A DNA stretch of 64,000 nucleotides from a virus (Duplodnaviria; Caudoviricetes): positions 26,497 to 90,496 of the IMG/VR virus record IMGVR_UViG_3300043753_000023, one strand, 5' to 3'. The notes beneath the pieces are model-generated. The model ran no database searches and was not told the DNA's origin. It saw only the letters and a program-made list of their open reading frames with translations. The position numbers and the translations under genes were made by a program. Below are positions 10,905 through 23,790 of the stretch, piece by piece. Position 1 is the stretch's first letter. Each line of letters starts with the position of its first letter.

Positions 10905-11411
10905 CTAACGCGGCTGGTCACCACGCAGCCAGAAGTTTCTGCCGTGGCCTTCCAGTAGGCCCCCATGTTCACTCAGCTTCCAAAATACGGACCTGATCGT
11001 TTGGGGCGACGTTCCGTACCTTTCGGCGAGGACGGTTGCGGCTGGGAGCGTGCGTCCACGGGGAAACTCGCCCCGCAGGATTGCCGCCCGCAAATCAGCT
11101 TCTATCTGCGGTTTGCGCGGGTCGACGTACTGACTCCCGTCCTCCCGGTAGCGCGATCCTTGGTTTCCGATGTGGGAGCCATCGAACCGTGGCATCTCGT
11201 CTACGAGTGCCTTGTCCTCGGCTGCCGTTGCAGTGGCCCTATCTGGGAACCACTCGTGGGTCTTGTTGGCGACCAGGTGCCACCAGCCTTGGTAGAGGCG
11301 GTGCGTGGCCCAGCGCTTCTCAAGGTCGTGCGTGATGCCGACGTACAACAGGCGTTCTTCCGCGTCGAAGAACCGGTAGAGGGCTGTAGGCCGGTCGGCG
11401 AGGTTGCCCAT
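10905..11411 (-). CDS. GIY-YIG-like nuclease domain fused to a C-terminal GntR wHTH
   Basis: ALYRFFD...LLYVGIT...RWATH, then IEADLRAAILRGEF...LAERYGTS. Confidence 0.8.
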   Translation of the reverse strand: MGNLADRPTALYRFFDAEERLLYVGITHDLEKRWATHRLYQGWWHLVANKTHEWFPDRATATAAEDKALVDEMPRFDGSHIGNQGSRYREDGSQYVDPRKPQIEADLRAAILRGEFPRGRTLPAATVLAERYGTSPQTIRSVFWKLSEHGGLLEGHGRNFWLRGDQPR

Positions 11412-11449
11412 CGTTCGGATGCCTCCTGGGCTGTGCTCACTCAGCGAGC

Positions 11450-11504
11450 TTGACTTCTACGTAGAAGCAGAGTCTACTAGAGAGCAGAGCTTCTACGGAG
11501 AAGC
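11450..11504 (+). promoter_or_regulatory. Rightward early promoter with two CTTCTACG(T/G)AGAAG operators
   Basis: TTGACT at 11450 overlapping CTTCTACGTAGAAG 11454-11467; GCTTCTACGGAGAAGC 11489-11504. Confidence 0.8.
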
Positions 11505-11539
11505 TTGCTCCGTCCGAACTCCACCTCAGGAACCCACAG

Positions 11540-11773
11540 ATGACTGACACTCTGACTCTGCCACCCCCGACCGATGACCTTCTGCGCGTCTCCGAGGTGG
11601 CAGGCATCCTGCGACTCCACGTCTCATCCGTCTACCGTCTGGTCGACTCCGGGCGCCTCGACGCTCACGCGCTCGGCGACGGGAAGGTCCGCCGCCGCGG
11701 CATTCGCATCTGGCGTTCCTCCGTCGACGCACTGCTGCAGGAGTCCCGCCTGGGACACGAGGCGGCAGCCTGA
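11540..11773 (+). CDS. Excisionase-family (HTH_17) DNA-binding protein
   Basis: LLRVSEVAGILRLHVSSVYRLVDSGRL. Confidence 0.85.
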   Translation: MTDTLTLPPPTDDLLRVSEVAGILRLHVSSVYRLVDSGRLDAHALGDGKVRRRGIRIWRSSVDALLQESRLGHEAAA

Positions 11774-11964
11774 TGTCCGCTCAGGACCCCACCCCCGCCG
11801 AGGCCAGCACCGACCCCCTCACCTCCGCGCAGCGCCACTTGGACGTCCTGGTCAACCTGTTCGTCAACGACGGCTCCCTCACTGGCTCGGAGCGCTCCCT
11901 CCTCGTCGGAGACATCAAGGACGCGAAGGCCCACCTCGACGAGTTGAAGAGGGGCCTGCGGTGA
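11773..11964 (+). CDS. Small hypothetical protein
   Basis: TGATG coupling. Confidence 0.65.
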   Translation: MSAQDPTPAEASTDPLTSAQRHLDVLVNLFVNDGSLTGSERSLLVGDIKDAKAHLDELKRGLR

Positions 11965-12143
11965 GCCGCCCCGACATTTCGGCCAGCTGGTCCGACGAGG
12001 ACTGGGCGGACGCCCGCGAGGATCTCGCCCCGTCGTCGGGCAGCGAACCGCCCGTCGGCCAGTACCCGGCCGCCCCGCCCGAGCACTGGACGTGGGCCGA
12101 CCCCGACGGCCGGCCCGCAGCCTGGGGGGCGTTCGGTGAGTAG
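11961..12143 (+). CDS. Small hypothetical protein
   Basis: GTGA coupling. Confidence 0.55.
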   Translation: MSRPDISASWSDEDWADAREDLAPSSGSEPPVGQYPAAPPEHWTWADPDGRPAAWGAFGE

Positions 12144-12258
12144 CGAGAAGACCGTCCCCGTGCACCTGGACTGGCTGGAGACGGGATACCCGAACTGGCC
12201 CGCCCCCGAGCCGCAGTCCGAACCGTCCGAGAACGAGACCAGCGAGGAGGAGAAGTGA
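12136..12258 (+). CDS. Small acidic hypothetical protein
   Basis: Own translation MSSEKTVPVHLDW...; ends GAGGAGAAGTGA, which supplies the RBS of the next gene. Confidence 0.5.
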   Translation: MSSEKTVPVHLDWLETGYPNWPAPEPQSEPSENETSEEEK

Positions 12259-12431
12259 GCAGCGCCAGCGACTTGGCCAGCCAGTACATCAAGGCGAAGA
12301 AGGCCGGCGACGACGCGACCGTCGACGCGATCATCGACGACGCGATCAACCGGCTCGGCTCCCGTGACATCACGCCCGGGGAGTACAACGCCCTGCTCGT
12401 GGCCGCCATTGCCTTCGAGGACTCGGAGTGA
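12255..12431 (+). CDS. Small hypothetical protein
   Basis: Own translation MSSASDLASQYIKAK...; GTGA coupling at both ends. Confidence 0.6.
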   Translation: MSSASDLASQYIKAKKAGDDATVDAIIDDAINRLGSRDITPGEYNALLVAAIAFEDSE

Positions 12432-12748
12432 GTACCGCGTGGCCCGAGGGCGTGATCGCCCGCTACCTGACCGTCGGCGGTGCCAACGTCGACATCACCG
12501 TTCAGATCAACCACGACAACATCGCCGACGAAGACGGCCTGAGCCTGGTCGACATCAGCCATCTGGCCACGTGCACCGGCTGTGGCTCGATGGCCAAGGC
12601 ATACAGCGACCGCGGCATCGACGACACCGAGCAGGCCCGTCGCACCGCGATCGACCTGACGTCCCCCAAGGGGCTGGAGATCAAGGAGTGGGCCCAGTCC
12701 CACGCCGAGGAGTGCCGGGCGATGCCCCGGCCCGAGGGGGCGAAGTGA
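12428..12748 (+). CDS. Hypothetical streptomycete phage protein with CxxC
   Basis: WPEGVIARYLTVGGA...CTGCG...WAQSHAEECRAMPRP. Confidence 0.8.
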   Translation: MSTAWPEGVIARYLTVGGANVDITVQINHDNIADEDGLSLVDISHLATCTGCGSMAKAYSDRGIDDTEQARRTAIDLTSPKGLEIKEWAQSHAEECRAMPRPEGAK

Positions 12749-12891
12749 GCGTCTGCCAGGCCTGTGGCCACCCGACCAGCCCGCAGGATCCGCCCGCCCA
12801 TGTCGACGGCTTCGTGATCCACGGGAGCCACCTGTCCGACCCGCGGAGTGGCTTCCATGGACGCACCCCCGACATCGAGGAGGAGAAGTGA
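12745..12891 (+). CDS. Small Cys/His hypothetical protein
   Basis: GTGA coupling; CQACGH. Confidence 0.55.
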   Translation: MSVCQACGHPTSPQDPPAHVDGFVIHGSHLSDPRSGFHGRTPDIEEEK

Positions 12892-12992
12892 CCGAGACCA
12901 CGGTCGATGACCTGCCGGACGACGACACCGACTACCAGGTGGAGATCATGGCGCGGGACATCCTGCACCGCCTCCCCGCGCCGGCCAAGTGA
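12888..12992 (+). CDS. Small hypothetical protein
   Basis: GAGGAG RBS; coupling. Confidence 0.5.
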   Translation: MTETTVDDLPDDDTDYQVEIMARDILHRLPAPAK

Positions 12993-13156
12993 CCGCCTAC
13001 CACGAGCGGCTGGACGAGGCGCGAGTCCTCTGCTCGACCGTCAATCTCCCGCCGCCGGCCACCCCCGCGGACCCGTCCGTCCCGCTCGCCGCCGACCGAA
13101 TCCTGAAGACCCTCGGCTACCACCCCGACAACGCCCGCCCCTGGTGGGACGACTAG
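12989..13156 (+). CDS. Small hypothetical protein
   Basis: GTGA coupling. Confidence 0.45.
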   Translation: MTAYHERLDEARVLCSTVNLPPPATPADPSVPLAADRILKTLGYHPDNARPWWDD

Positions 13157-13392
13157 TGACCGTCGTCCACGACGGCGAGGAGTACTTCTACCTCAGCCGC
13201 GGCGAACAGCCCGTCACCCACACGGCCGCCATCGTCGGCCGCTTCCACTGCGCCGGCTGCGGCACCACCCAGCAGGGCGCCGAGATGACCGACCTCACGA
13301 ACCTCGAATACGCCCGGGACTACGTCCAGACCCGGGCCATGTACGCAGCCCTGCACCACGCCAAAACCTGCAACCGAAGGGAATCCCCATGA
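13156..13392 (+). CDS. Hypothetical protein with CxxC
   Basis: TAGTG coupling; CAGCG. Confidence 0.6.
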   Translation: MTVVHDGEEYFYLSRGEQPVTHTAAIVGRFHCAGCGTTQQGAEMTDLTNLEYARDYVQTRAMYAALHHAKTCNRRESP

Positions 13393-13604
13393 CCATCTGG
13401 CGCGAAGGCTACGAAGCCGTCCTCGTCGACCCCTCCACCACCGTGATCGTGAACGGCGTCACCGCCGGCACCGTCACCGGCACCACCCAGCAGGACGGGT
13501 ACTACGACGTGCACATTGAGGACGCGGACGGCGTCCGTGCCACGTACCGCAACCTGGAGCTCCGCCGCACCGGCCACAAGTGGAGCGGCATCTGCCATAA
13601 CTGA
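13389..13604 (+). CDS. Hypothetical beta-rich protein
   Basis: GAAGG RBS; ATGA coupling. Confidence 0.7.
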   Translation: MTIWREGYEAVLVDPSTTVIVNGVTAGTVTGTTQQDGYYDVHIEDADGVRATYRNLELRRTGHKWSGICHN

Positions 13605-13705
13605 CTTCGCCCCGGGGCGGCCGCCAGGTCGCCAAACTCATCGGCTGCCCCCGGGCTACATCCGACTAGCAAACCAGGCCAACCCGCCCCACCCAGGAGC
13701 CCCCC

Positions 13706-15067
13706 GTGAACGAGCCCGACCTGTCCGCCGGCTGGCAGCCCATCGGCGACGTCATCGCCGACTCGCGGGCCGCCAGCCAGCGGCCCGAATCGGCCACGGA
13801 CACGCGGATCCAGCGCCTCCAAGTCAAGGCAGCCGAGAAGCGCACCGACCGGCACGACGCCGTCAAGACCTGGGCCGAGAAGCGCCAGGTCCGGCGCGAC
13901 GACCGTGCCGCCGACCGTGCCGAGCGCCGTCAGGAGAAGGACGAGCGCCGCGCCGATCGGGCTGCCACCCTCGCCCGCACTGGAGCCCGCGCACAGGACG
14001 TCCTGCAGCGGATCATCGTCGTCGGGCCAATCCTTGCCCCGATGGCCGTTGCCTGGACCGGGCAGTCCCGGTTCGCCACACAGATCCTCGGCTGGACGTT
14101 CATCGCGAGCATCCTGTACGCGGCCGCCTACGAGCTCACCACCGTCTACAACGCGTGGCTCTACCACCAGGCCCGCACCGACGGAGACAGCGGCTGGGAG
14201 TACCGGCTCGGCACCTGGATCTTCGCCATCGGCGCTGCGGTCCAACAGTGGTGGCACTACTCAAACCACTGGCACTCGACACCGCGGTCCGTCACCTACT
14301 CGATCATGTCGATCGTCGGCGTGCTCCTATGGGAGGGCCGGGCCCGTCTCATTCACCGCCGCAAGCTCCGCGCCGACGGCAAGCTCGCGCCGGCCCGCCC
14401 CCGGATCGGACTGGCCCGCTGGATCCGCTACCCGGTCCGGTCATGGACCGCCTGGTCCCTCATCACCCTCGAAGGCCACCGGACCCTCGATGCGGCGTGG
14501 ACCGCCGCCGACGCGCACTTGCGGTCCGAGAGGGACATCCAGGCGGTCCGGGCCTCGGCTCGGCGGTCCGCTCGGGAAGCCCAGCGGACCGAGCGGCTGG
14601 ACCGGAAGATGGGCCGGACCGGACCGGAGCAACTGACTGTTCCGGCCCGCACGGACCGCCCCGCGCTCACCGCCGGACCGGACCGGTCCGCCACGGACCA
14701 GGCGCAGGCGGCTGACCGGACCGATGCACCGGACCGCTCCCCTGGAACCGCCAGTGGACCGAACGCCGTGGACCGGTCCACGGCGGCCCGACAGGCGCTG
14801 ACCAGCCCGGACCACGGACCGAACGCAGAAAACCAGGCGGACCGCGACAAGCCCTCCCCGGCCAACAGCGGCCCGGACCGGACCGAAGTGGACTTCGCCC
14901 TCAACGATGTTGAGCGGGAAGCCATCGAGCTCCTGCGGTCCACCAAGCGGTCCATCAGCAAGCGCAACATCGCCGACGCGGTCCGCAACGACTTGGGCCG
15001 GTCCATCGGATCGGACCGGGCCGCCGAGATTGCCCGCCACTTCCGGACCCTGCGGCCCGCCGCCTAA
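13706..15067 (+). CDS. DUF2637-like membrane protein with low-complexity linker and C-terminal HTH-like domain
   Basis: CAGGAG RBS; charged N-terminus, about four hydrophobic segments, GPDRT-rich linker, C-terminal helical domain EREAIELLRS...RAAEIAR. Confidence 0.75.
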   Translation: MNEPDLSAGWQPIGDVIADSRAASQRPESATDTRIQRLQVKAAEKRTDRHDAVKTWAEKRQVRRDDRAADRAERRQEKDERRADRAATLARTGARAQDVLQRIIVVGPILAPMAVAWTGQSRFATQILGWTFIASILYAAAYELTTVYNAWLYHQARTDGDSGWEYRLGTWIFAIGAAVQQWWHYSNHWHSTPRSVTYSIMSIVGVLLWEGRARLIHRRKLRADGKLAPARPRIGLARWIRYPVRSWTAWSLITLEGHRTLDAAWTAADAHLRSERDIQAVRASARRSAREAQRTERLDRKMGRTGPEQLTVPARTDRPALTAGPDRSATDQAQAADRTDAPDRSPGTASGPNAVDRSTAARQALTSPDHGPNAENQADRDKPSPANSGPDRTEVDFALNDVEREAIELLRSTKRSISKRNIADAVRNDLGRSIGSDRAAEIARHFRTLRPAA

Positions 15068-15152
15068 CGGTCCACCACTCCGGTCCGACATCAACTGGAC
15101 CGGTCCTCTCCCGCCCACAGAGCAATGCCCCCGGTCCGGTCCGGTCCGGTCC
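14433..15152. repeat. Dense GGWCC (GGACC/GGTCC) array, ending in tandem (CCGGT)n
   Basis: About 40 sites counted by eye in about 720 bp, both orientations, all three codon phases, continuing past the stop codon. Confidence 0.9.
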
Positions 15153-15210
15153 AGTCCGCCCCAGGGCCCCGCCAAATATCAGGCCCCCTCGCCCCGATTG
15201 GAGACGCACG

Positions 15211-15306
15211 ATGAGCGACTGGATCGCCCTGGCCCTCGCGCAAGCAGCCGTCGCGACCGCCGCAGGCCTCATCGTCCTGTGGCTTCGCAAGAAGGAGACA
15301 CGGTGA
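15211..15306 (+). CDS. Small single-TM peptide
   Basis: GGAG RBS; MSDWIALALAQAAVATAAGLIVLWLRKKETR. Confidence 0.55.
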   Translation: MSDWIALALAQAAVATAAGLIVLWLRKKETR

Positions 15307-16022
15307 CCACCAACACCCAAGCCCCGCCCCCGCCGAACTACCCGCCCACCGCCGGAACCACCTGGTGGGGCCCCGCCTCCGGGGTCGTGTTGACACCTGA
15401 GCAGATCGCCGCTGCCGAGGCCGCCCAGCAGCGCCTCGCCGCCACCCTCACGGCCTCCATGGACCTCCTGAACCGCGCTATCACCGAAACCCCCGAGGAG
15501 CGCAAGCAGCGCCTGCACGATGAGCAGCAGGCCGCCGACAAGGCTCGCCGGGAAGCCGACGACGCCATCCGCGCCAGCCTGGGGGAGACCCCCGAGCAGC
15601 GCGCCGAACGCCACCATGCCGAGGACCGCGCCCGCCGGGAACGCGAACGAATCGAAGACCGCGAGAAGCGGCACAAGACCCAGCGCGCTGCGACGCGACT
15701 GTGGAAGGCCAGCCCCGACCAGCGCGCCCGCCGCTTCCGCCGCTGGTGCACCCTCACCGCCCTCTCTGCCTCCATCGGCTACTCGATCGGCATCGTCCAG
15801 TGGGTCGGCGGCCTTCCCGCCCTGGTTGCCGGGTTTGCACTGATCCCCACGTACGCCTTCGACCTGTACACGCGCAATTGTTCACGCCTCTCCGCCCTAG
15901 ACGGTTGGCTCCCCGTTACCGCCGTGATCTTCACCCGCGTACCCGTCGCCTCCGTGCTCGCCTCACTGCTCCACCTCAACCAGCTGCTCGCCGCCAGCGG
16001 CCACCTTTTCCATCACCACTGA
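15303..16022 (+). CDS. Coiled-coil plus membrane protein
   Basis: AAGGAG RBS; charged helix followed by 3 hydrophobic segments. Confidence 0.75.
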   Translation: MTTNTQAPPPPNYPPTAGTTWWGPASGVVLTPEQIAAAEAAQQRLAATLTASMDLLNRAITETPEERKQRLHDEQQAADKARREADDAIRASLGETPEQRAERHHAEDRARRERERIEDREKRHKTQRAATRLWKASPDQRARRFRRWCTLTALSASIGYSIGIVQWVGGLPALVAGFALIPTYAFDLYTRNCSRLSALDGWLPVTAVIFTRVPVASVLASLLHLNQLLAASGHLFHHH

Positions 16023-16039
16023 TCAAGGAGTGCAACACC

Positions 16040-16462
16040 ATGTCTGAGCAGTTCGGCGCGTTCGGGTCCGGCGGGGTATGCCTGGTCATCGCGGTGTGGG
16101 TGATCGTCGGCCATCGGGGCAAGGGCAAGCTTGCCAAGATGCACGAAGATCACCACACCGCATGGTGGATGATCCTCTTCGGGAGCTTCGCCGCCAGTGC
16201 CGGCCAGGCATTCAGCGCGCCGGGCAAGGTGGGGGAGGCGTTCACCCACGTCTTCACCTCCCAGTCCACCGCGTTCGGCGAGGTCGGCGTTGGCGCCGCC
16301 GCAGTGATCCTGACGATCGTCCTGTTCGGTACCAAGCCACGCCCGCTCCTGGACAGCATCCTCGGGGCCACCGTGCCAAGCGTGTACGCCGCCGCTGGCG
16401 GCCTGTGGGCCCTCCCGCTGACCGTGGTGGACTCGGTAGTTAAGTCCCTGGTGGGTGCCTGA
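16040..16462 (+). CDS. Multi-pass membrane protein
   Basis: AAGGAG RBS; 4-5 hydrophobic segments. Confidence 0.8.
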   Translation: MSEQFGAFGSGGVCLVIAVWVIVGHRGKGKLAKMHEDHHTAWWMILFGSFAASAGQAFSAPGKVGEAFTHVFTSQSTAFGEVGVGAAAVILTIVLFGTKPRPLLDSILGATVPSVYAAAGGLWALPLTVVDSVVKSLVGA

Positions 16463-17475
16463 TGGCCAGCCAGTTCGCCGTCGCCCGCGCCGAACACTCC
16501 GAGGCCCTGGCTGCATGGAGGGCCCGCTATGCCAAGGCCCGCGACATTAAGGACCCCCAGCAGCGCGCCGCGGCCCTCGAAGCCCTCATGGGGGAGCGGC
16601 CTGCCCACCCCTACCTCGCAGGCATCTCCCTAGCCGCCCTCTTCCACGGCCACCGAGTCCTCCTGGCCCCCCTTAAGGGCTGGCGTAACGACGCCAAGGC
16701 CCAGCACGCCGAGGCCCTGGAAGCATGGCGGGAGCGCCGCGCTGAAGCCCAGAAAATCAAGGACGCGGACCAGCGCGCCAAGGCCCTGGAAGCACTCAAG
16801 GGGGAGAAGCCCACCAGCCCGATGCTGACCGCCATCGGATGCGTCGTCGTAGGGGCCATCGTCGTGGCCCCGATCGCCCATCGGCACGTAGGCACACTGG
16901 GCACGCTCCTGACCTGGGGGCTCCCCCTGTGGGTGATCGTTGCCCTGATCGCCGGTCAGAAGGCCGGCGCGCCTAAGACCGCCGACGCCCTCGACCAGGA
17001 GGACGACGACCAGGCCGGGGAGGATCAGGCCGACCAGGACCCCTGCGAGGAGCTCGAACCGGCCGGCCCGACCCCTGCCGTGGTGCACGCCCTGATGGCC
17101 TCCGCGGCGGCCGCTGGGGCCAACATTCTCCTCACCCGGCTGGCCACCGAACTGGCCGCCTCCCACCCCGACTGGGAACCCTCCACCAAGGCCGTCCGTG
17201 CCCTCCTCTCCGAGGCCGGCATCCCGGTCCGGGCGGGGGTGCGCACCCCAGACGGCAACGGGCCTGGCATCCACCACCAGGACGTGCCGCCGCTTCACTC
17301 CCCCTCCGTCCCCGCCCCTGTTCCCGCCGTTGTTGCCAACGTTGGCGCAGGTCAGAGCGCCAACGCCAACGCCAACAACGCCGAGATCCGGGGTGCTGGG
17401 GAGGGGTGCATCTACGTGGCCGACCCCGACAATCCGGCCCGCACGATCATCATCCAGACCAACGCCGCCGCGTGA
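16462..17475 (+). CDS. Membrane protein with internal duplication and probable C-terminal DNA-binding region
   Basis: TGATG coupling; two about 45-aa repeats, 2 TM segments, LLTRLATEL...VRALLSEAGIPVRAGVR. Confidence 0.75.
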   Translation: MASQFAVARAEHSEALAAWRARYAKARDIKDPQQRAAALEALMGERPAHPYLAGISLAALFHGHRVLLAPLKGWRNDAKAQHAEALEAWRERRAEAQKIKDADQRAKALEALKGEKPTSPMLTAIGCVVVGAIVVAPIAHRHVGTLGTLLTWGLPLWVIVALIAGQKAGAPKTADALDQEDDDQAGEDQADQDPCEELEPAGPTPAVVHALMASAAAAGANILLTRLATELAASHPDWEPSTKAVRALLSEAGIPVRAGVRTPDGNGPGIHHQDVPPLHSPSVPAPVPAVVANVGAGQSANANANNAEIRGAGEGCIYVADPDNPARTIIIQTNAAA

Positions 17476-17531
17476 TGCCGAGGCCTGGGCAACCCGTCCA
17501 GGCCGCCCCCTTCCCTATCCAGGAGACCCCC

Positions 17532-17978
17532 ATGGACCGCACCGACCAGAACCTCGACGCCGGCATCGCCGACACCCAGTCCGTCATGGGTCGCCTTGAG
17601 CAGAAGGCCACGATCTTCTCTGCCATCAACACGGCTCTCCTCATCGTTCCCGCAAGTCTCGGCCTGGGATCCTGCCCCACCCCGGTTGTTTTGCTCGCCG
17701 GGATCAGCATCACGATCGTGGTCGCGGCGCTCACGCAAGGGCTGCTCGCAATCCGGCCCTTCCTTGGCGGCTCCGACAGGTCGTCGTTCCCTTGGTGGGC
17801 AGAGGCGGAACCCGCGGAGCTCGACGCCACACTCGCGATGGATAACCGCAAAGCCCAGCTGGTCAACCTGCCGAAGATCTGCATGGGGAAGATGGTCAAA
17901 CTGCAGCGGTGCAGCGACTGGACGATCGCCGCCTTCGTGGCGCTTGCCGTCACTGTGATCGCCCGGGCTGCCCTCTGA
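17532..17978 (+). CDS. Pycsar effector-like (DUF5706/PycTM) membrane protein
   Basis: RLEQKATIFSAIN, TM-TM-IRP, KMVKLQRC then a terminal TM; CAGGAG RBS. Confidence 0.7.
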   Translation: MDRTDQNLDAGIADTQSVMGRLEQKATIFSAINTALLIVPASLGLGSCPTPVVLLAGISITIVVAALTQGLLAIRPFLGGSDRSSFPWWAEAEPAELDATLAMDNRKAQLVNLPKICMGKMVKLQRCSDWTIAAFVALAVTVIARAAL

Positions 17979-18061
17979 ACTGCCGCCCAGCGGGCCCCGG
18001 CTGGGCGAGCCGCACCGGGCCCGCGCCCTGGCAGTGACATCGGCCAGTCGAGCAGCAGGAC

Positions 18062-18090
18062 TTGCCAACTCGCTCGCGATCAATAACACT
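18062..18090 (+). promoter_or_regulatory. Candidate promoter TTGCCA-N16/17-TAACACT
   Basis: Sigma70-like hexamers in an AT-richer intergenic region. Confidence 0.4.
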
Positions 18091-18117
18091 AATCCCAACG
18101 GCATCACTGTGCCTCGA

Positions 18118-18150
18118 AACGAGCCCCGCCCCCGCTGGCGGGGCTTTCGT
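18118..18150 (+). terminator. Hairpin plus TTTCG tail upstream of the HTH gene
   Basis: AGCCCCGCC/GGCGGGGCT stem. Confidence 0.65.
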
Positions 18151-18168
18151 GCGTCTAGGGGGTGCATC

Positions 18169-18405
18169 GTGGCCCTCGACCTTCGCCTCCTTCACGCAAC
18201 CCCGGACCAGCTCGTCGACGTCTTCGAGACCGCACGCTTCTTCGGGGTAAAGCCCGTGACGATCCGCCAGTGGACACGCCTCGGCTACATCACGCCGATC
18301 ATCCGGGGCGAACTCGGACGCAACAAGCGCAGCTTGTACTGGCTGCCCGACCTCGTGGCCTACAAGAAACTCCGCGACGGCAAGCCCGAGGCCGCCGCCG
18401 CCTGA
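18169..18405 (+). CDS. MerR-like HTH DNA-binding protein
   Basis: VDVFETARFFGVKPVTIRQWTRLGYI...LYWLPDL. Confidence 0.8.
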   Translation: MALDLRLLHATPDQLVDVFETARFFGVKPVTIRQWTRLGYITPIIRGELGRNKRSLYWLPDLVAYKKLRDGKPEAAAA

Positions 18406-18575
18406 AGCTCCCGCCGGCCCGCTTCCCTGCGGGCGTCCTGGCGGGACGGCCCGCGTCGTCCGAGGGTGCGACGCAGGGCCCTGATGGGGGTTCCGGGAGT
18501 GCCGCCAGTCGACGAGCTGACGCCGGCCCCGGAACCCCCACACCCTCCCCAGCTGCCGATCAGGAGGATTCGACG

Positions 18576-18755
18576 GTGAAACGCCTACGCCGAGACCTCT
18601 GGTGGTGGGCCGAGCGGCGAGCTGGACAACTGTGGTCCCAGGCGTGCCGTGACGGCACCTCCTGCTGGCTCGACTGGCTGCCCTCCTACTGCGCCCGCCG
18701 CCGGTACGCCGCCGAACGCGCCCTGCACCCCGAGCTGTTCATGGCGGCCGAGTGA
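18576..18755 (+). CDS. Small Trp-rich hypothetical protein
   Basis: AGGAGG RBS; GTG start. Confidence 0.6.
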   Translation: MKRLRRDLWWWAERRAGQLWSQACRDGTSCWLDWLPSYCARRRYAAERALHPELFMAAE

Positions 18756-19012
18756 CCGACAATCCGTGGCGCGCCCTCGACGACCCCTTCACCGAACCCG
18801 ACGACTGGGCGCCGATCCCCGGCACCTGCTCTCGCTGCGGCCAACCCGCCCACCTCGGCGAGCGGCGCTGGTGGCACCTCGGGGACGTCTGCCCGAGCCG
18901 TGGCAGGCAAGCCGACTTCCTGCCCGACCCGCCAACACCGGCCCCGTGCCCCGACTGCACCACCTGCGACAGTCACGGCGACTGCCCCACCTGCCGCCAT
19001 CGGTATTTCTGA
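18752..19012 (+). CDS. Cys-rich Zn-binding hypothetical protein
   Basis: CSRC, CPDC, CTTC, CPTC. Confidence 0.65.
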   Translation: MTDNPWRALDDPFTEPDDWAPIPGTCSRCGQPAHLGERRWWHLGDVCPSRGRQADFLPDPPTPAPCPDCTTCDSHGDCPTCRHRYF

Positions 19013-19036
19013 CCAGCCCTCATCAAGGAGACGCCC

Positions 19037-19297
19037 ATGTCCAGCATCATCGACGACCTCAAGGCCCGGTTCGCCAAGTTCGGCGCCGAGTTCCACGACG
19101 CTCTCGACAAGCTCCGCGGCGACGAGAAGCAGCTCGCCACCGAGGCCAAGGCCGACGTCACCAAGGTCGAGACTGACGTCCGCCCGGCGATGCAGGAGGC
19201 GCAGGCCGACGCCGAGAAGCTCGCCGGCGAGGCTGTCACCGACATCAAGCAGGCCACCCAGCCGGTCGCCAACCCCGAGCCGCCGACCGCGGCCTGA
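19037..19297 (+). CDS. Hypothetical helical protein
   Basis: AAGGAG RBS. Confidence 0.8.
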   Translation: MSSIIDDLKARFAKFGAEFHDALDKLRGDEKQLATEAKADVTKVETDVRPAMQEAQADAEKLAGEAVTDIKQATQPVANPEPPTAA

Positions 19298-19336
19298 CCG
19301 GACCCCAGTCCCAGCGCGCGAGATCGGAAGGCGTCC

Positions 19337-19909
19337 ATGGCTAACGGCAACAAGCCGACCTGCGGCGCCAAAACCCGGCAGGAGGGCAGCGCCGAGTTCT
19401 GCGGCCTGCCCGCCGGTTGGGGAAGTGACCATCCTGGGATCGGGCGATGCAAGTTGCACGGCGGCAACACCGGGAAACAGCGCGTCGGCGCCGCCAGGGT
19501 CAGGGCCGAGCAGGAGGTGCAGCAGGTGCTTGCCGAACTCGATGTCCCAGCCGTCGACGACCCGCTCACCGCGCTGTCCCAACTCGCCGGACAGGTGGTC
19601 GCCTGGCAGACCGCCACCGCCACCCTCGTCAACCGGCTCGACGACCAGGTCCGCTACGAAGGTGCTACCGGAGCCGAGCAGCTCCGCGCCGAGGTCGGCC
19701 TCTACGAGCGCGCCATGGACCGCGCCAACACCGTGCTGTCCACCATCGCCCGCCTCGACATCGACGGACGCCTTGCTCGTATTGAGGAAGCCAAGGCGCA
19801 GATCCTCATGGAAGCCGTGCAAGCTGGCCTCGACGCGATTGGGCTCCCCAGCGAGCAGGCCACCACCGTGAAACAGGTCATGGCGCGGAGGCTGCGGGCC
19901 GTGTCCTGA
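19337..19909 (+). CDS. Probable terminase small subunit (HGG motif)
   Basis: CGAKTR...CKLHGG; directly before the large terminase. Confidence 0.75.
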   Translation: MANGNKPTCGAKTRQEGSAEFCGLPAGWGSDHPGIGRCKLHGGNTGKQRVGAARVRAEQEVQQVLAELDVPAVDDPLTALSQLAGQVVAWQTATATLVNRLDDQVRYEGATGAEQLRAEVGLYERAMDRANTVLSTIARLDIDGRLARIEEAKAQILMEAVQAGLDAIGLPSEQATTVKQVMARRLRAVS

Positions 19910-19922
19910 AGGCGGTGACGCC

Positions 19923-21500
19923 ATGGCGCGCCGCTCCGCATTCACCGTCCTCGCCGACCAGTTGGAAGACTCCACCGCCAACCAGGCCCGCGCTGCGGAC
20001 TACGCTGCCGACCCGGCACTGTGGGCCCGGGAGAAGCTCGGCGAACACTTCTGGTCCAAGCAGGTCGAGATCGCCGACTCGGTCCGCGACAACCGACTGA
20101 CTGCCGTGCAGAGTTGCCACGGCGTAGGGAAGTCCTGGACCGCGTCGCGTCTCACCGCCTGGTGGCTGGACATCCACCCGCCCGGCGAAGCCCGCGTCGT
20201 TACCACCGCCCCCACCGGCGACCAGGTCAAGGCGATCCTCTGGTCTGAGATCAACGCCGCCTTCGCAACAGCGGCAGCCCGCGGCAACCCGCTTCCGGGC
20301 CGGATCAACGAGACGGACTGGAAGCTCGGCAAGCGGCTGATCGCCTTCGGCCGCAAGCCCAGCGACTACAATCCGCACGCCTTCCAAGGCATCCACGCCA
20401 GGTACGTCCTTGTAGTGCTCGACGAGGCCTGCGGCATCAACAAGCAGTTCTGGGTGGCCGCCCAAGCGATCGCCACCGGCGAGCACTGCCGGATTCTCGC
20501 CATCGGCAACCCCGACGACCCTGGATCCCAGTTCGCCAAGGTCTGCGCGAACGACCGCTGGAACACCATCCGGATCTCCGCGTTCGACACGCCGAACTTC
20601 ACAGGCGAGCCGGTTCCCGATGACCTCAAACCGATGCTCGTCTCGCACGCCTACGAGCACGACATGCGCACCGAGTTCGGCGAGCATGCCCCCACCTACA
20701 TCTCCAAGGTGCTCGGCCAGTTCCCCCACGACGCCGACGACGGCGTGGTACGACTCTCCGCCGTCCGCGCCTGCGCGCTACCTCCCTCCACGCCACTGCT
20801 CTATACCGACCTGACGCCAGTGCAGTTGGGCGTCGACCTAGGCGCCGGCGGCGACGAAACCGTCATCCGGGAACGCCGCGGCATGCGGGTCGGCCGCGAA
20901 TGGCGCAGCCGCGAGAAGGACCCGACCAAGGTTGTCGATGTGATCGTCGCGGCGATCCGCGACTCCAAGGCCACTGTGGTGAAGGTCGACTCCATCGGCA
21001 TCGGCTGGGGCATCGTCGGCACGCTGCGGGAACGCCGCGCGAAGGGCGAGCACGACGCCGACATCATCGGCGTCAACGTGAGCGAAGCCAGCACCGAGCC
21101 CGAGAAGTTCGGCCGCCTACGCTCCCAAATCTGGTGGCAAGTTGGCCGGCAACTCTCCGAAGACCGCGGCTGGGACCTGTCCGAGCTTGACGAGGACGAC
21201 CGGGAACGCCTGGTGTCCCAACTGACCGCCCCCAAGTACTCGCTGGACGCTGCCGGGCGGATCGTCGTCGAGCCCAAGCCCGAGACGAAGAAGCGCATCG
21301 GCCGCAGCCCCGACAATGCCGACGCCCTGCTCCTCGCGTTTTACGCGGGCTCCGGGTCTGACGCACACGCCTGGATCAACCACTTGCAGCGCAAGGTCGG
21401 TGCCGACGCCGACACGGCACCCGAGGCAACATCCGCTTCGCCGGCCCCCGCCGATGCCCTGGCCGCAGCCCGGCACAACGCCTACCGACAGCAGCGCTAA
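19923..21500 (+). CDS. Terminase large subunit
   Basis: SCHGVGKS Walker A, VVLDEA Walker B, GVDLGAGGD, DNADALLL nuclease motifs. Confidence 0.93.
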   Translation: MARRSAFTVLADQLEDSTANQARAADYAADPALWAREKLGEHFWSKQVEIADSVRDNRLTAVQSCHGVGKSWTASRLTAWWLDIHPPGEARVVTTAPTGDQVKAILWSEINAAFATAAARGNPLPGRINETDWKLGKRLIAFGRKPSDYNPHAFQGIHARYVLVVLDEACGINKQFWVAAQAIATGEHCRILAIGNPDDPGSQFAKVCANDRWNTIRISAFDTPNFTGEPVPDDLKPMLVSHAYEHDMRTEFGEHAPTYISKVLGQFPHDADDGVVRLSAVRACALPPSTPLLYTDLTPVQLGVDLGAGGDETVIRERRGMRVGREWRSREKDPTKVVDVIVAAIRDSKATVVKVDSIGIGWGIVGTLRERRAKGEHDADIIGVNVSEASTEPEKFGRLRSQIWWQVGRQLSEDRGWDLSELDEDDRERLVSQLTAPKYSLDAAGRIVVEPKPETKKRIGRSPDNADALLLAFYAGSGSDAHAWINHLQRKVGADADTAPEATSASPAPADALAAARHNAYRQQR

Positions 21501-21519
21501 ACGACGGGGGGCTGCCGGG

Positions 21520-23790
21520 ATGGTCGACCCCCGCCGCATTGCCAAAACCTACGGGGAGCCCGCCCCCATGGCGGCCGGCGAAGCGGCCGCGCGGATGACG
21601 CCGACGTCGCCCTTCTCGCCCGGCGCGCCGATCAACCCGTACGACGGCTACTCGCGGACCCCGCGAGTGCAGGAGTACGTGCCCGGTTACAACATCTCGG
21701 CGAGGCCCCGCTCCCATGAGCGGGTGTCGTTCGAGACGCTGCGTGGGCTGGTCAACTCCTACGACGTTGCGCAGATGTGCATCTGGCATCGGATCGACTC
21801 GATCCGGTCGTTGGACTGGTCGCTCGTCGCGGCCCCGCACTTCGACGGGGACGTCACCGATGCAGTCCGGGTCGGCATGGCGGTGCTGTCCAAGCCGGAT
21901 GGTCGGACGCCATTCAGCACGTGGCTGTCGTCGTACCTGTACGACATCCTCGCCTATGATGCCGGCGCGCTCTACCGGCTGCGGAATCGTCGCGGAGATG
22001 CGATCGGGCTGCTGAACGTGGACGGCACCACCATCGCGCCGCTCCTCGACTACTGGGGCCGTCCTCCCGCCGCGGCCGCACCCGGGGAACCCGAGCCGGA
22101 AGCCTTCGTCCAGTACATCAACGGCCTGAGCTGGAACTGGTTGACCCTCAGCGACCTGATCTACCAGCCGTTTCGGAAGAAGAATGACTCCCCGTACGGG
22201 CTGTCTCCGCTTGAGACCATCCTGCTCAATGCCAACACCGACATTCGGTTTCAGGTCTACTTCCTGCAGCGATTCACCGAGGGCAACATCCCGGAGGCCT
22301 TCGCGTCAGCCCCCGAGTCGTGGTCACCCGACCAGATCGAGCAGTGGCAAGGCCTCTGGGACTCGTTCATGTCCGGCGACCAGGCCCAGAAGCACACCAT
22401 CAAGTGGCTTCCCAGCGGGTCGACGATCGCATGGTCGAACGAGAAGGACTTCACAGACGCGTTCTCGCTGTTCTTGATGCGCAAGACCGCCGCGGCCTAT
22501 CACGTGGTACCGAGTGACTTGGGGTTCACCGAGACCGTCAACCTGTCCTCCTCCGAGAGCCAGGCCGACGTGCAGCACCGCGTCGGCGACCTGCCGCTGA
22601 TCCGGCACGTCCAAGGGGTTCTGACCCGCTTTCTGCAGGACGATCTCGGGTTGCCGCTCGAGTTCCTCTGGGACCTGGGCGAAGAGCAGGCCGACCGCCT
22701 CCAGCAGGCTCAGGCTGACCTGATCTATATGAACTCGGGCGTGATCGGGGCCAGCGACATCCGCGAGATGCGCTACGGCCTGGCCGAGCCGGCAGGCGTG
22801 CCCGTGCCGCGGTTCATCTTCACCGAGCGATCCGGTCCGATCCCGCTCGCCAGCCTGTACGCGCTGGCCGGTCAAATCGACTCGGCCTCCGCGGCCCCGC
22901 TGCCGGGCGCCCAGTTGCCGCACGCCGCGTTCACCGCGGCCGAGGGTGTCGTCCCGAACCCGCCCGTCCTGACCGCACCCCTTGCCGAGCAGGAGTACGG
23001 GCCGTCCGCGATCCCGCCCACACCGCAACCCCCGGCCCCCGAGGCCCCGGTCGGCAAGGACGCCGGGGCGCTGACGGCCGGGATCACGACCGCGACTGGG
23101 ATCACCGGGTATGACCTCGTTGGCCGGCGCGAGGACGACGAGGGTGACGAGCCAGAGGCGGACCAGCAGCGGTTGGCCAAAACTGAGCTTGCGGCGTTCC
23201 GAAAGTTCGCCAAAGCCCGCCGCCGCGCCGGACGTTGGCGGGACTTCGAGTTCCGGCATGCCGACCCCGTTGACGCCCGACGGTTCAACCAGGGCGGCCA
23301 GCTCGCGGTCCGCAAGGACGCCGGACAGATTGCGGTTGCCGGGCTTGCCGTGATGGCAGCCGACACCGGCCGCGTCCTCATGCTGCAGCGATGCCTCGGC
23401 CCTGAGGATCCTGCTGGCGGAACCTTCGAATTCCCCGGCGGTCACCTCGAGGATGATGAGACACCGCTGATGGGCGCCTGGCGGGAGTGGGCAGAGGAGA
23501 CCGGATGCGTCCCGCCGCCTGGCGTGCAGACCGGCACGTGGACGAGTCCGGACGGCATCTATCAGGGCATCGTCTGGACTGTCGACTCCGAGGCCTTCGT
23601 GCCCGTACGCGGCGATCGGGAGATTTCCAACCCAGATGACCCGGACGGCGACCAGGTCGAAGCGATCGCCTGGTGGGACCCGGCGCAGCTCGACGACAAC
23701 CCGGCAGTACGTCCCGAACTGCTCGCGTCGCTACCCAACGTCCTTGTCGCTCTCGGCCGTGCGCCCGACGACGAGACCCCCAACGCATAG
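21520..23790 (+). CDS. Portal protein with C-terminal Nudix hydrolase domain
   Basis: Portal motifs (YDAGALYRLR, SPYGLSPLE, AYHVVPSDLGF); Nudix box GHLEDDETPLMGAWREWAEETG. Confidence 0.88.
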   Translation: MVDPRRIAKTYGEPAPMAAGEAAARMTPTSPFSPGAPINPYDGYSRTPRVQEYVPGYNISARPRSHERVSFETLRGLVNSYDVAQMCIWHRIDSIRSLDWSLVAAPHFDGDVTDAVRVGMAVLSKPDGRTPFSTWLSSYLYDILAYDAGALYRLRNRRGDAIGLLNVDGTTIAPLLDYWGRPPAAAAPGEPEPEAFVQYINGLSWNWLTLSDLIYQPFRKKNDSPYGLSPLETILLNANTDIRFQVYFLQRFTEGNIPEAFASAPESWSPDQIEQWQGLWDSFMSGDQAQKHTIKWLPSGSTIAWSNEKDFTDAFSLFLMRKTAAAYHVVPSDLGFTETVNLSSSESQADVQHRVGDLPLIRHVQGVLTRFLQDDLGLPLEFLWDLGEEQADRLQQAQADLIYMNSGVIGASDIREMRYGLAEPAGVPVPRFIFTERSGPIPLASLYALAGQIDSASAAPLPGAQLPHAAFTAAEGVVPNPPVLTAPLAEQEYGPSAIPPTPQPPAPEAPVGKDAGALTAGITTATGITGYDLVGRREDDEGDEPEADQQRLAKTELAAFRKFAKARRRAGRWRDFEFRHADPVDARRFNQGGQLAVRKDAGQIAVAGLAVMAADTGRVLMLQRCLGPEDPAGGTFEFPGGHLEDDETPLMGAWREWAEETGCVPPPGVQTGTWTSPDGIYQGIVWTVDSEAFVPVRGDREISNPDDPDGDQVEAIAWWDPAQLDDNPAVRPELLASLPNVLVALGRAPDDETPNA

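What the first reader, a model, noticed from the sequence alone, without database searches (positions are those of the whole stretch)
13706..15160. Membrane-anchored HTH protein whose own gene is saturated with GGWCC sites (self-encoded centromere-like array)
Seen: about 40 GGACC/GGTCC pentamers in about 720 bp (14433-15152). A rough expectation at 72% GC is 3-4. They occur in both orientations, in all three codon phases (read as GP, D or T/R), and continue past the stop as (CCGGT)n, so the signal is at DNA level and not only a protein repeat. The protein has about 4 TM segments and a C-terminal HTH-like domain. Inference: it binds the array in its own gene and tethers phage DNA to the membrane (partition or hyphal spreading, analogous to parS or plasmid clt/spd loci). 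Alternative: a decoy or methylation sink for GGWCC/CGGWCCG-recognising (AvaII/RsrII-type) restriction-modification enzymes.
Basis: partly seen in the sequence, partly recalled or inferred. Interest (0 to 1): 0.8.

Follow-up and report, generated by a model that had tools for sequence, protein, structure and literature searches.

The report
Binding-site array inside phage spread gene
A 90-kb Streptomyces-type phage has about 40 copies of the DNA word CCGGACCG written through the second half of a membrane "spread"-protein gene, and because plasmid and phage relatives carry other words wherever the protein's DNA-binding tail differs, these are probably the protein's own docking sites, holding the phage DNA at the membrane.

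Summary
There are 41 GGWCC sites in 14434-15152, against a median of 2 per 750 bp, and this is the only such array in the 90,496-bp phage genome.

The enrichment is selected at DNA level:
- Synonymous recoding of the same peptide gives 9.1±2.6 sites; 33 are observed.
- Synonymous changes between relatives are 1/48 inside motifs and 26/79 outside.
- 8 copies lie in non-coding DNA after the stop codon.

The gene encodes a DUF2637 protein with the SpdB2 build: a long N-terminal helix, four transmembrane helices, a roughly 95-residue disordered linker and a confident C-terminal three-helix bundle.

About 70 relatives on Streptomyces, Kitasatospora and Streptosporangium plasmids and on viral contigs carry an array in the same place. 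The 8-bp word differs between clades (CCGGACCG, CGAGACC, GCGAACCG, TGAGAC, CCGGATC, CCGTACGG) and always matches the class of the tail.

This phage has no TraB-type DNA pump and no ParB. The most likely reading is therefore self-docking of the element's DNA to a membrane protein. Binding itself is not shown.

I found no paper describing this. Earlier agents of this scan reported the same phenomenon on other DNA.

The parts
13706..15067 (+). Gene for a 453-aa SpdB2-like (DUF2637) membrane protein. GTG start with AGGAG 7 nt upstream.
   Evidence: ORF. GC3 is 0.88. Pfam PF10935 covers aa 110-255, E 2e-5, above the curated cut-off. phrog_10376. 130 homologues found.
13802..14005 (+). Long charged N-terminal helix (aa 33-100), a coiled-coil candidate, running into the first transmembrane helix.
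   Evidence: AF2 full-length model: helix 33-128, pLDDT 85-96 over aa 40-100. pSVH1 SpdB2 has an N-terminal coiled coil at aa 1-99 (PMC4447253).
14006..14374 (+). Four transmembrane helices (about aa 101-128, 132-158, 164-185, 193-223).
   Evidence: AF2 helices, DUF2637 match. This is the most conserved part among homologues.
14411..14614 (+). Basic juxtamembrane helices and a long helix (aa 236-303). The 5' part of the array lies here.
   Evidence: AF2 pLDDT 87-97. Invariant R238, W239, W250, W265. Motif map.
14615..14905 (+). Disordered linker of about 95 residues rich in GP/DR/T/S. It is the densest part of the array.
   Evidence: AF2 pLDDT 34-44. Peptides such as GPDRS, TDR and PDRT are encoded by CGGACCG-type words, with the rare Gly codon GGA used in 4 of 5 GP dipeptides.
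14906..15052 (+). C-terminal three-helix bundle (aa 401-449), the presumed DNA-reading head. The third helix reads SIGSDRAAEIARHF.
   Evidence: AF2 pLDDT about 96 both in the domain model and in the full-length model. Fold matches are weak and not family-specific: DNA-binding winged-helix domains at Z 3.5-4.3. The sequence class follows the array word.
14434..15152 (.). Array of 41 GGWCC cores, consensus cCGGACCGg, in both orientations. It crosses the stop codon.
   Evidence: Synonymous resampling gives 9.1±2.6 against 33 observed. Synonymous differences to L003 are 1/48 inside motifs and 26/79 outside, Fisher p 1e-5.
15068..15152 (.). Non-coding tail of the array: 8 copies, including tandem (CCGGT)4 at 15133-15152.
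   Evidence: The phage relatives L003 and L004 have 9 and 7 copies after their stop codons, in otherwise different intergenic sequence.
15211..17978 (+). Co-directional cluster of small predicted membrane or unknown proteins (31, 239, 140, 337 and 190 aa), possible Spd-type partners.
   Evidence: ORFs and translations. There are no informative family hits apart from phrog_34550 and a sub-threshold PycTM hit. Their role is inferred only from their position.

Best explanation
The gene encodes a spread-type membrane protein of the SpdB2/DUF2637 kind. About 40 CCGGACCG-type sites are written into its second half and the 85 bp after the stop codon. These are most likely the binding sites of the protein's own C-terminal three-helix domain. 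That domain hangs in the cytoplasm on a flexible linker of about 95 residues below a four-helix membrane (pore) domain. An oligomeric membrane protein with many heads meeting a field of many sites would give strong multivalent docking of the phage genome to the membrane or a hyphal cross-wall. This would serve spread of phage DNA through the mycelium, or retention and segregation of the element, without needing a plasmid-type DNA pump. Placing the sites inside the gene keeps reader and site on one inseparable module. With coupled transcription, translation and membrane insertion, it would also favour binding in cis. Shown here: the array, its DNA-level selection, the protein architecture, and the class-by-class match of word and tail. 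Inferred: binding by the tail, and the biological role.
For: - **Array and its uniqueness:**
- **DNA-level selection:** 33 sites observed against 9.1±2.6 (maximum 16 of 500) under synonymous resampling, while the N-terminal half is at expectation (4 against 3.9). The same holds in other classes: 53 vs 13.9, 47 vs 12.9, 41 vs 16.2, 30 vs 5.4, 20 vs 1.8, 29 vs 1.6.
- **Purifying selection on synonymous sites inside motifs:** 1/48 against 26/79.
- **Copies in non-coding DNA after the stop codon,** in three phage relatives.
- **Architecture:**. With four transmembrane helices and a basic stretch after the fourth, the tail should be cytoplasmic.
- **Word follows tail:** about 70 homologous loci carry an array at the same gene position. 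The word differs by clade and each word goes with one tail class.
- **Related tails go with related words:** SIATDRA/SIGSDRA with CCGGACCG, AINTTRA with CCGGACCA, GIATKRA with CCGGATC.
- **Array physically separate from the tail-coding DNA:** in L005, L006 and L007 an array lies 0.4-1 kb downstream of the gene.
- **Tail and array move between backbones:** on the transmembrane-domain tree the classes need at least 11 changes. L051 is 84-88% identical in DNA to class-A loci up to the junction after the transmembrane domain and unalignable in the tail.
- **No other obvious reader in this phage:** no FtsK/SpoIIIE, ParB or tyrosine integrase families, and no tblastn match to three plasmid or phage translocase-type proteins.
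- **Same word with different neighbours:** L001 has an FtsK-type TraB, L002 has an unrelated ATP/GTP-binding protein, and the phage has neither.
- **Precedents:** SpdA2 binds sps inside its own gene (PMC4170104). SpdB2 is an oligomeric, pore-forming, DNA-binding protein with actinophage homologues (PMC4447253).
Against: No binding experiment exists, and no tool here models protein-DNA contacts. The tail is a small three-helix bundle with no significant match to a DNA-binding family (Foldseek E at least 0.35; best unrelated Z 6.1). pSVH1 SpdB2 was reported to bind dsDNA non-specifically (PMC4447253). Array and tail are encoded by the same roughly 700 bp, so one recombination event moves both and their co-variation is partly linkage. 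At the L051 junction the downstream genes are also more diverged (about 70%), so a downstream-encoded reader is not excluded. In classes B to D the words are mostly co-oriented (for example 38:6), which would also suit a directional translocase signal. A distant DUF2637 gene, L080, has no array.
Confidence: 0.6

Rival explanations
1. The array is a clt-like transfer signal read by another protein, not by the tail. Candidates are a TraB/FtsK-type translocase of a co-resident plasmid or integrative element, or a partner encoded downstream. That protein would load on the repeats and pump the DNA.
For: Known clt loci consist of 7-9-bp direct repeats read by the winged helix of TraB/TraA, and sometimes overlap a gene's 3' end (PMC3583192; PMC4447253). 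The words here have an 8-bp consensus and are mostly co-oriented in several classes. Plasmid homologues lie 1-3 kb from translocase genes, and the viral contig L007 has a TraB-like ORF just downstream. The TraB recognition helices of L001 (class A) and L060 (class C) differ at several positions, so a specificity change is possible.
Against: This phage has no translocase detectable by Pfam or by tblastn with three different queries. The same word CCGGACCG occurs beside an FtsK-type TraB (L001), beside an unrelated ATP/GTP-binding protein (L002), and with neither. The scale differs: about 40 sites over 720 bp, against 4-9 repeats in 50-200 bp for known clt.
Confidence: 0.15
2. The tail does bind the array, but the purpose is autoregulation. 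Bound protein would block transcription through its own gene and the downstream membrane-protein genes, capping production of a potentially toxic pore protein (a kil/kor-type control). DNA tethering would not be the function.
For: The sites lie inside and just after the coding region, upstream of co-directional membrane-protein genes. Spread and transfer genes of Streptomyces plasmids are toxic when unregulated and are under Kor/TraR control (PMC4447253).
Against: A few operators would be enough for repression. Forty sites that force rare codons are costly. In L005-L007 arrays lie in or beyond the next gene. A membrane anchor is not needed for a repressor. This reading is compatible with the main one rather than exclusive of it.
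Confidence: 0.1
3. There is no binding function. The words would be a by-product of microsatellite-like expansion in a disordered, low-complexity linker, with (GGACC)n read as GPDRT, and would be kept only as protein sequence.
For: (GGACC)3 encodes GPDRT, and the linker is disordered and repeat-like. There are tandem pentamers at 15133-15152, and adjacent spacing of 5 bp is the commonest. In L007 the GGATC words lie in a Gly/Ser-rich protein stretch.
Against: The words occur in both orientations and in several codon phases. They occur inside the conserved juxtamembrane helices and the folded tail, and in non-coding DNA. Counts far exceed every synonymous resample in eight tested genes. Synonymous sites inside motifs are conserved.
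Confidence: 0.05
4. The array is a decoy or methylation sink for GGWCC/CGGWCCG-specific (AvaII/RsrII-type) restriction-modification enzymes.
For: CGGWCCG is the RsrII site, and half of all copies in the genome lie in the array. GGWCC is mildly under-represented elsewhere (0.73-0.80 of maximal-order Markov expectation).
Against: Relatives carry unrelated, mostly non-palindromic words at the same gene position, changing with the protein tail. Depletion elsewhere is weak, and CGGACC/GGTCCG are not depleted (ratios 1.06 and 1.21). I know of no decoy mechanism that would require placement in this particular gene.
Confidence: 0.03

Closest known systems
SpdB2 spread protein of Streptomyces venezuelae plasmid pSVH1, and the putative SpdB2 homologues on actinophages (Tiffert 2007; Thoma 2015, PMC4447253)
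   Same: The architecture matches: N-terminal coiled-coil-like helix, four transmembrane helices, a cytoplasmic C-terminal domain, and a similar size (409 against 453 aa). Plasmid homologues of the window protein sit in GntR-spd-traB modules. A proposed role in spreading DNA through the mycelium has already been extended to phages in that paper.
   Different: SpdB2 was reported to bind dsDNA non-specifically, and no site array in spdB2 has been described. Direct sequence comparison with pSVH1 SpdB2 was not possible because the record is not held. The link rests on DUF2637 membership and on architecture. This phage has no traB or traR.
SpdA2 and its sps palindromes in plasmid pIJ101 (Thoma 2014, PMC4170104)
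   Same: An Spd-named protein of a Streptomyces mobile element specifically binds a short DNA motif lying inside its own coding sequence. The motif is conserved at DNA level and imposes a peptide motif (SRDD/E). It affects maintenance rather than transfer.
   Different: SpdA2 is a small soluble 135-aa protein with 2-3 copies of one conserved 12-bp palindrome. Here the protein is a membrane protein, with about 40 copies of an 8-bp word that differs between clades.
clt loci with TraB/TraA recognition repeats (pSVH1 8-bp repeats, pJV1 9-bp repeats, pWTY27 TGACACC repeats)
   Same: These are clusters of 7-9-bp repeats, specific to each element, that act in cis and are read by a winged helix on a membrane-anchored protein.
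   Different: Those loci hold 4-9 repeats in 50-200 bp of mostly non-coding DNA. Here there are about 40 sites over 720 bp, mostly coding.
ParB-parS centromeres
   Same: Clustered specific sites nucleate a large protein-DNA complex used to position DNA. parS sites can lie inside par genes (from general knowledge).
   Different: There is no ParB_N domain in the genome. No ParA partner was looked for beyond that search.

Membership tests
DUF2637 (PF10935) | Match to the Pfam model above the curated cut-off | tested here: met
   24.8 bits against a cut-off of 22.8, aa 110-255. Many homologues are pre-annotated PF10935.
SpdB2 spread proteins (pSVH1 type) | N-terminal coiled coil, four transmembrane helices, C-terminal cytoplasmic domain | tested here: met
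   AF2 model m0129322d692f: helix 33-128 running into TM1, further helices at 132-158, 164-185 and 193-223, and a folded tail at 401-449. Compared with the description in PMC4447253.
SpdB2 spread proteins (pSVH1 type) | Sequence homology to pSVH1 SpdB2 itself | not tested
   The pSVH1 record is not in the held collections. The assignment rests on DUF2637 and architecture.
SpdB2 spread proteins (pSVH1 type) | Encoded in a traR(GntR)-spd-traB transfer/spread module | tested here: not met
   This is met for the plasmid homologues L001, L002, L079 and L080. It is not met in this phage: no FtsK/SpoIIIE family hit and no tblastn hit to translocase-type proteins. The gene lies 5 kb upstream of the terminase gene.
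SpdB2 spread proteins (pSVH1 type) | Pore formation, peptidoglycan binding, requirement for pock formation or spreading | not testable with these tools
   These are biochemical and genetic properties (PMC4447253).
clt / TraB recognition repeats | Clustered short direct repeats specific to the element | tested here: met
   8-bp consensus cCGGACCGg, 41 cores in 720 bp.
clt / TraB recognition repeats | A cognate FtsK-like TraB/TraA with a C-terminal winged helix encoded by the same element | tested here: not met
   No PF01580 match in the genome. No tblastn match to L001 TraB, the L002 ATP/GTP-binding protein or the L007 TraB-like ORF.
SpdA2-sps system | 12-bp sps palindrome repeated 2-3 times within or beside an spdA gene | tested here: not met
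   The word here is a different 8-mer in about 40 copies, inside a DUF2637 gene. No SpdA-type protein was searched for.
ParB-parS partition system | ParB_N domain protein | tested here: not met
   No PF02195 match in the genome.
FtsK-gamma-type winged helix (reader of 8-bp KOPS/TRS words) | Structural or sequence match of the tail to FtsK gamma | tested here: inconclusive
   2ve8 at Z 3.8, rmsd 2.8 over 47 residues, tied with many other small helical domains. No Pfam hit. The profile search against PDB sequences found nothing relevant.

The most novel reading that the evidence does not exclude
The tail-plus-array segment is a self-contained, exchangeable 'address module'. A family of about 50-residue three-helix heads would each have an 8-bp specificity that can be read off from the array written into its own gene. 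Fused to a membrane pore protein, such a head would let phages and plasmids of mycelial actinomycetes dock their own DNA, and only their own, at membranes or cross-walls. In this phage that would move or retain the genome without a dedicated DNA pump and possibly without virions. The natural set of tail/word pairs would then amount to a recognition code for a new DNA-binding domain family.
Probability: 0.35. Interest if true: 0.85.

Novelty: new variant of a known kind. Interest (0 to 1): 0.72.

Why it matters
How Streptomyces plasmid DNA, and possibly phage DNA, moves through compartmented hyphae after entry is an open question. SpdB2 is the most conserved spread protein, yet it has only been credited with non-specific DNA binding. 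A dense, selected, clade-specific site array inside the gene gives a concrete and easily testable hypothesis: specific self-docking.

The result also offers several practical things:
- dozens of natural reader/word pairs for working out specificity;
- a clear case of strong DNA-level selection overriding codon choice across about 700 bp of coding sequence;
- a warning for annotation and for codon-optimised synthetic constructs of such genes, which would erase the sites.

If the module works without a DNA pump in phages, it would point to a virion-independent phase of phage spread or maintenance in mycelia.

Tried and rejected
- **Sequence search of the tail profile against PDB chains:** only chance hits.
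- **Foldseek of the tail model against PDB:** nothing at E <= 0.001.
- **VIA-align wide search:** the best hits were ribosomal stalk P1 (Z 6.1) and then many small DNA-binding helical domains at Z 3.5-4.3, including FtsK gamma. This is too weak to assign a family.
- **NCBIfam:** no meaningful hit for the protein or its four downstream neighbours.
- **Rfam on 13300-15400:** no family.
- **Papers and records:** the pZL12 and Vogelmann 2011 papers and the pSVH1 record are not held.
- **Megablast of 11000-20000 against plasmids:** found only a 55-bp hairpin element, so there is no close DNA relative among sequenced plasmids.
- **Helical phasing:** pooled site-to-site distances peak at 5, 10, 21, 32 and 42 bp. 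The loci are related and codon periodicity interferes, so I do not rely on this.
- **TraB comparison between a class-A and a class-C locus:** inconclusive as a test of who reads the array. The proteins are 67% identical, but the putative recognition helix differs at several positions.
- **Complex prediction:** not used, because it cannot model DNA and a tail-dimer result would not change the main odds.
- **Careful maximum-likelihood tree:** did not finish. The quick tree was used.
Full report
**Setting.** The window is bases 26497-90496 of a 90,496-bp IMG/VR virus record with direct terminal repeats and 68% G+C. It encodes:
- DnaN, DnaB and a helicase with HA domains;
- an Xre-type HTH protein;
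- a large terminase (19923-21500) and a portal-NUDIX fusion;
- a 1372-aa tape-measure-size protein and a tail-spike-like protein.

It is a tailed phage of a Streptomyces-like host. No FtsK/SpoIIIE, ParB_N or tyrosine-integrase family was found in the record.

**The observation.** ORF 13706-15067 (+) encodes 453 aa. GGACC/GGTCC occurs 41 times between 14434 and 15148, against a median of 2 per 750 bp in the window. The next densest window in the whole genome holds 8. A hexamer scan of the genome finds no other array of this kind. The unit is longer than the pentamer: the consensus is cCGGACCGg. CGGWCCG occurs 23 times in the array and 22 times in the rest of the genome. Eight copies lie in the 100 nt after the stop codon, ending in (CCGGT)4.

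Four other tests decide the question.
- *Synonymous resampling.* Keeping the peptide and redrawing codons from the phage's own usage gives 9.1±2.6 sites (maximum 16 of 500) for aa 241-453, against 33 observed. The N-terminal 240 aa are at expectation (3.9 against 4). Four of five GP dipeptides use the rare GGA codon, which is 6% of Gly codons.
- *Conservation of synonymous sites.* In codon alignments with relatives, synonymous third positions differ in 1 of 48 cases inside motifs and 26 of 79 outside (window against L003, Fisher p 1e-5). Seven further pairs go the same way.
- *Non-coding copies.* The two closest phage relatives have 9 and 7 copies after their stop codons, in otherwise dissimilar intergenic DNA.
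- *Retention where the peptide changed.* 23 of 29 motif positions are retained in L003, including 5 of 9 where the encoded residues differ.

**The protein.** Pfam gives DUF2637. The full-length AlphaFold model (41-sequence alignment) shows these parts:
- a long helix 33-128 that runs into the first of four membrane helices (to about 223);
- basic juxtamembrane helices and a long helix to 303;
- a disordered stretch 304-400 (pLDDT 34-44);
- a three-helix bundle 401-449 (pLDDT about 96). The domain-only model gives the same bundle.

This is the architecture published for SpdB2 of pSVH1: coiled coil, four transmembrane helices and a self-interacting C-terminal domain, in an oligomeric, pore-forming, dsDNA-binding protein. 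That paper also notes putative SpdB2 homologues on actinophages (PMC4447253). Fold searches with the tail gave only weak, non-specific matches, many of them DNA-binding winged-helix domains. I therefore call the tail HTH-like, not a member of a named family.

**Relatives.** tblastn finds the protein on 72 Streptomyces-group plasmids and on 5 Streptomyces phages. On the plasmids it forms the C-terminal half of proteins of about 850 aa. These lie in modules with a GntR regulator, WhiB, small unknown genes and an FtsK/SpoIIIE or other ATP-binding protein. I fetched 5 viral and 68 genomic loci and 5 annotated plasmid loci.

Every locus with a complete gene has a dense word array at the same place, starting just after the transmembrane domain. 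The one exception is a distant 322-aa form (L080). In L006 and L007 the array lies downstream of the gene rather than inside it. The word differs between clades:

| Class | Word | Loci |
|---|---|---|
| A | CCGGACCG | 43 non-identical loci, including the window |
| A variant | CCGGACCA | L005 |
| E | CCGGATC(T/G) | L006, L007 |
| B | CGAGACC | L044, L047, L050, L051, L057, L081 |
| C | GCGAACCG | 16 loci, mostly Kitasatospora |
| D | TGAGAC | L069 |
| F | CCGTACGG (palindrome) | Streptosporangium pSROS01 |

In eight genes tested from the other classes, counts again exceed every synonymous resample (for example 29 against 1.6±1.3).

**Word follows tail.** Aligning the last 85 residues sorts the proteins into tail classes that coincide with the word classes:

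| Third-helix sequence | Word |
|---|---|
| SIATDRA / SIGSDRA | CCGGACCG |
| AINTTRA | CCGGACCA |
| GIATKRA | CCGGATC |
| STAAKR | CGAGACC |
| TTA(H/Y)HR | GCGAACCG |
| ATAGRR | TGAGAC |

On a tree of the transmembrane domain the classes need at least 11 changes, so tail and array have been exchanged between backbones. L051 is 84-88% identical in DNA to class-A loci up to about 35 nt past the transmembrane domain and unalignable thereafter. The plasmid L081, whose transmembrane domain is the closest plasmid relative of the window's, carries a class-B tail and array.

There is a caveat. Tail and array share one DNA segment, so co-inheritance alone is not proof of binding. What is not trivial is that each tail class has an array of its own uniform word under selection. 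In L005-L007 an array also lies 0.4-1 kb away from the tail-coding DNA, and its word fits the tail's relatedness to class A.

**Who else could read it?** The same class-A word occurs in three settings: next to an FtsK-type TraB (L001), next to an unrelated ATP/GTP-binding protein (L002), and in this phage with neither. That argues against a translocase as the general reader. Two things keep that rival alive at about 15%: the co-orientation of words in several classes, and the differences in the TraB recognition helix between a class-A and a class-C locus. A decoy for restriction-modification enzymes does not explain words that change with the tail, and depletion of GGWCC elsewhere is mild.

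**Mechanism proposed.** An oligomeric membrane protein would present several flexible-linked heads to a field of about 40 sites and so clamp the element's DNA to the membrane or a cross-wall. This step is inferred. In plasmids it would feed the TraB/Spd spreading apparatus. In this phage, which lacks a pump, it may retain or distribute the genome in hyphal compartments. An autoregulatory roadblock is a compatible side effect.

**Comparison with what is known.** Three systems come closest:
- SpdB2, for the same protein type, though no specific sites are known for it;
- clt repeats read by TraB/TraA (PMC3583192).

Full-text searches found no description of arrays in spdB2-type genes.

A look-up of this scan's own notes was made after my analysis of the array, its classes and the literature precedents. 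It shows that earlier agents reported the same phenomenon, with other words, on other genomes. I list those notes, but I rely only on what was tested here.

Noticed in passing
window 13609-13657: A G+C-rich hairpin directly after the stop codon of the upstream gene (RNA fold -33.2 kcal/mol, z -3.2). It is 91-95% identical to intergenic DNA on 12 Streptomyces plasmids that otherwise share no DNA with this phage. It matches no Rfam family. It could be a terminator or a small mobile palindromic element.
   Followed up: partly
window 21316-23790: The portal protein carries a C-terminal NUDIX hydrolase domain (Pfam Phage_portal plus NUDIX in one 824-aa ORF).
   Followed up: no
window 17406-17978; L081 2867-3577: The 190-aa membrane protein at the end of the cluster has a sub-threshold PycTM (Pycsar effector) match. 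On plasmid NZ_CP054917 a gene annotated 'Pycsar system effector family protein' lies immediately upstream of the SpdB2-like gene. This may be a recurrent association of this type of membrane protein with spread genes.
   Followed up: no
L007 7358-11425 (IMGVR_UViG_3300043652_000023): In this viral contig the GGATC array lies inside the next gene, which encodes a Gly/Ser-rich 610-aa protein that uses the rare GGA codon. It is followed by a 728-aa ORF with an N-terminal membrane part and a C-terminal HTH-like end, resembling a TraB-type translocase, although Pfam gives no hit.
   Followed up: partly
L005 5319-5822 (IMGVR_UViG_3300046782_000218): A second array of about 38 CCGGACCA words lies 400 bp downstream of the SpdB2-like gene, in addition to the array inside the gene. 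No convincing ORF on the + strand covers it.
   Followed up: partly
L079 5462-6398 (Streptosporangium roseum pSROS01, NC_013596): A distant DUF2637 gene (31% identity in the membrane domain, different order) carries 30 copies of the palindrome CCGTACG(G), encoded as (A/S/P)RT(E/D/G/Q) with rare CGT codons. The rest of the locus has 2 copies. An SsgA-family gene follows it.
   Followed up: partly
window 33000-33600: A CAGCAG-rich stretch lies inside the 1372-aa tape-measure-size gene. It is probably an ordinary protein-level repeat.
   Followed up: no
whole genome outside 14400-15160: GGACC and GGTCC are mildly under-represented (0.80 and 0.73 of maximal-order Markov expectation), and CGGACCG stands at 0.58. 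This could reflect avoidance of stray binding sites or weak restriction pressure.
   Followed up: partly
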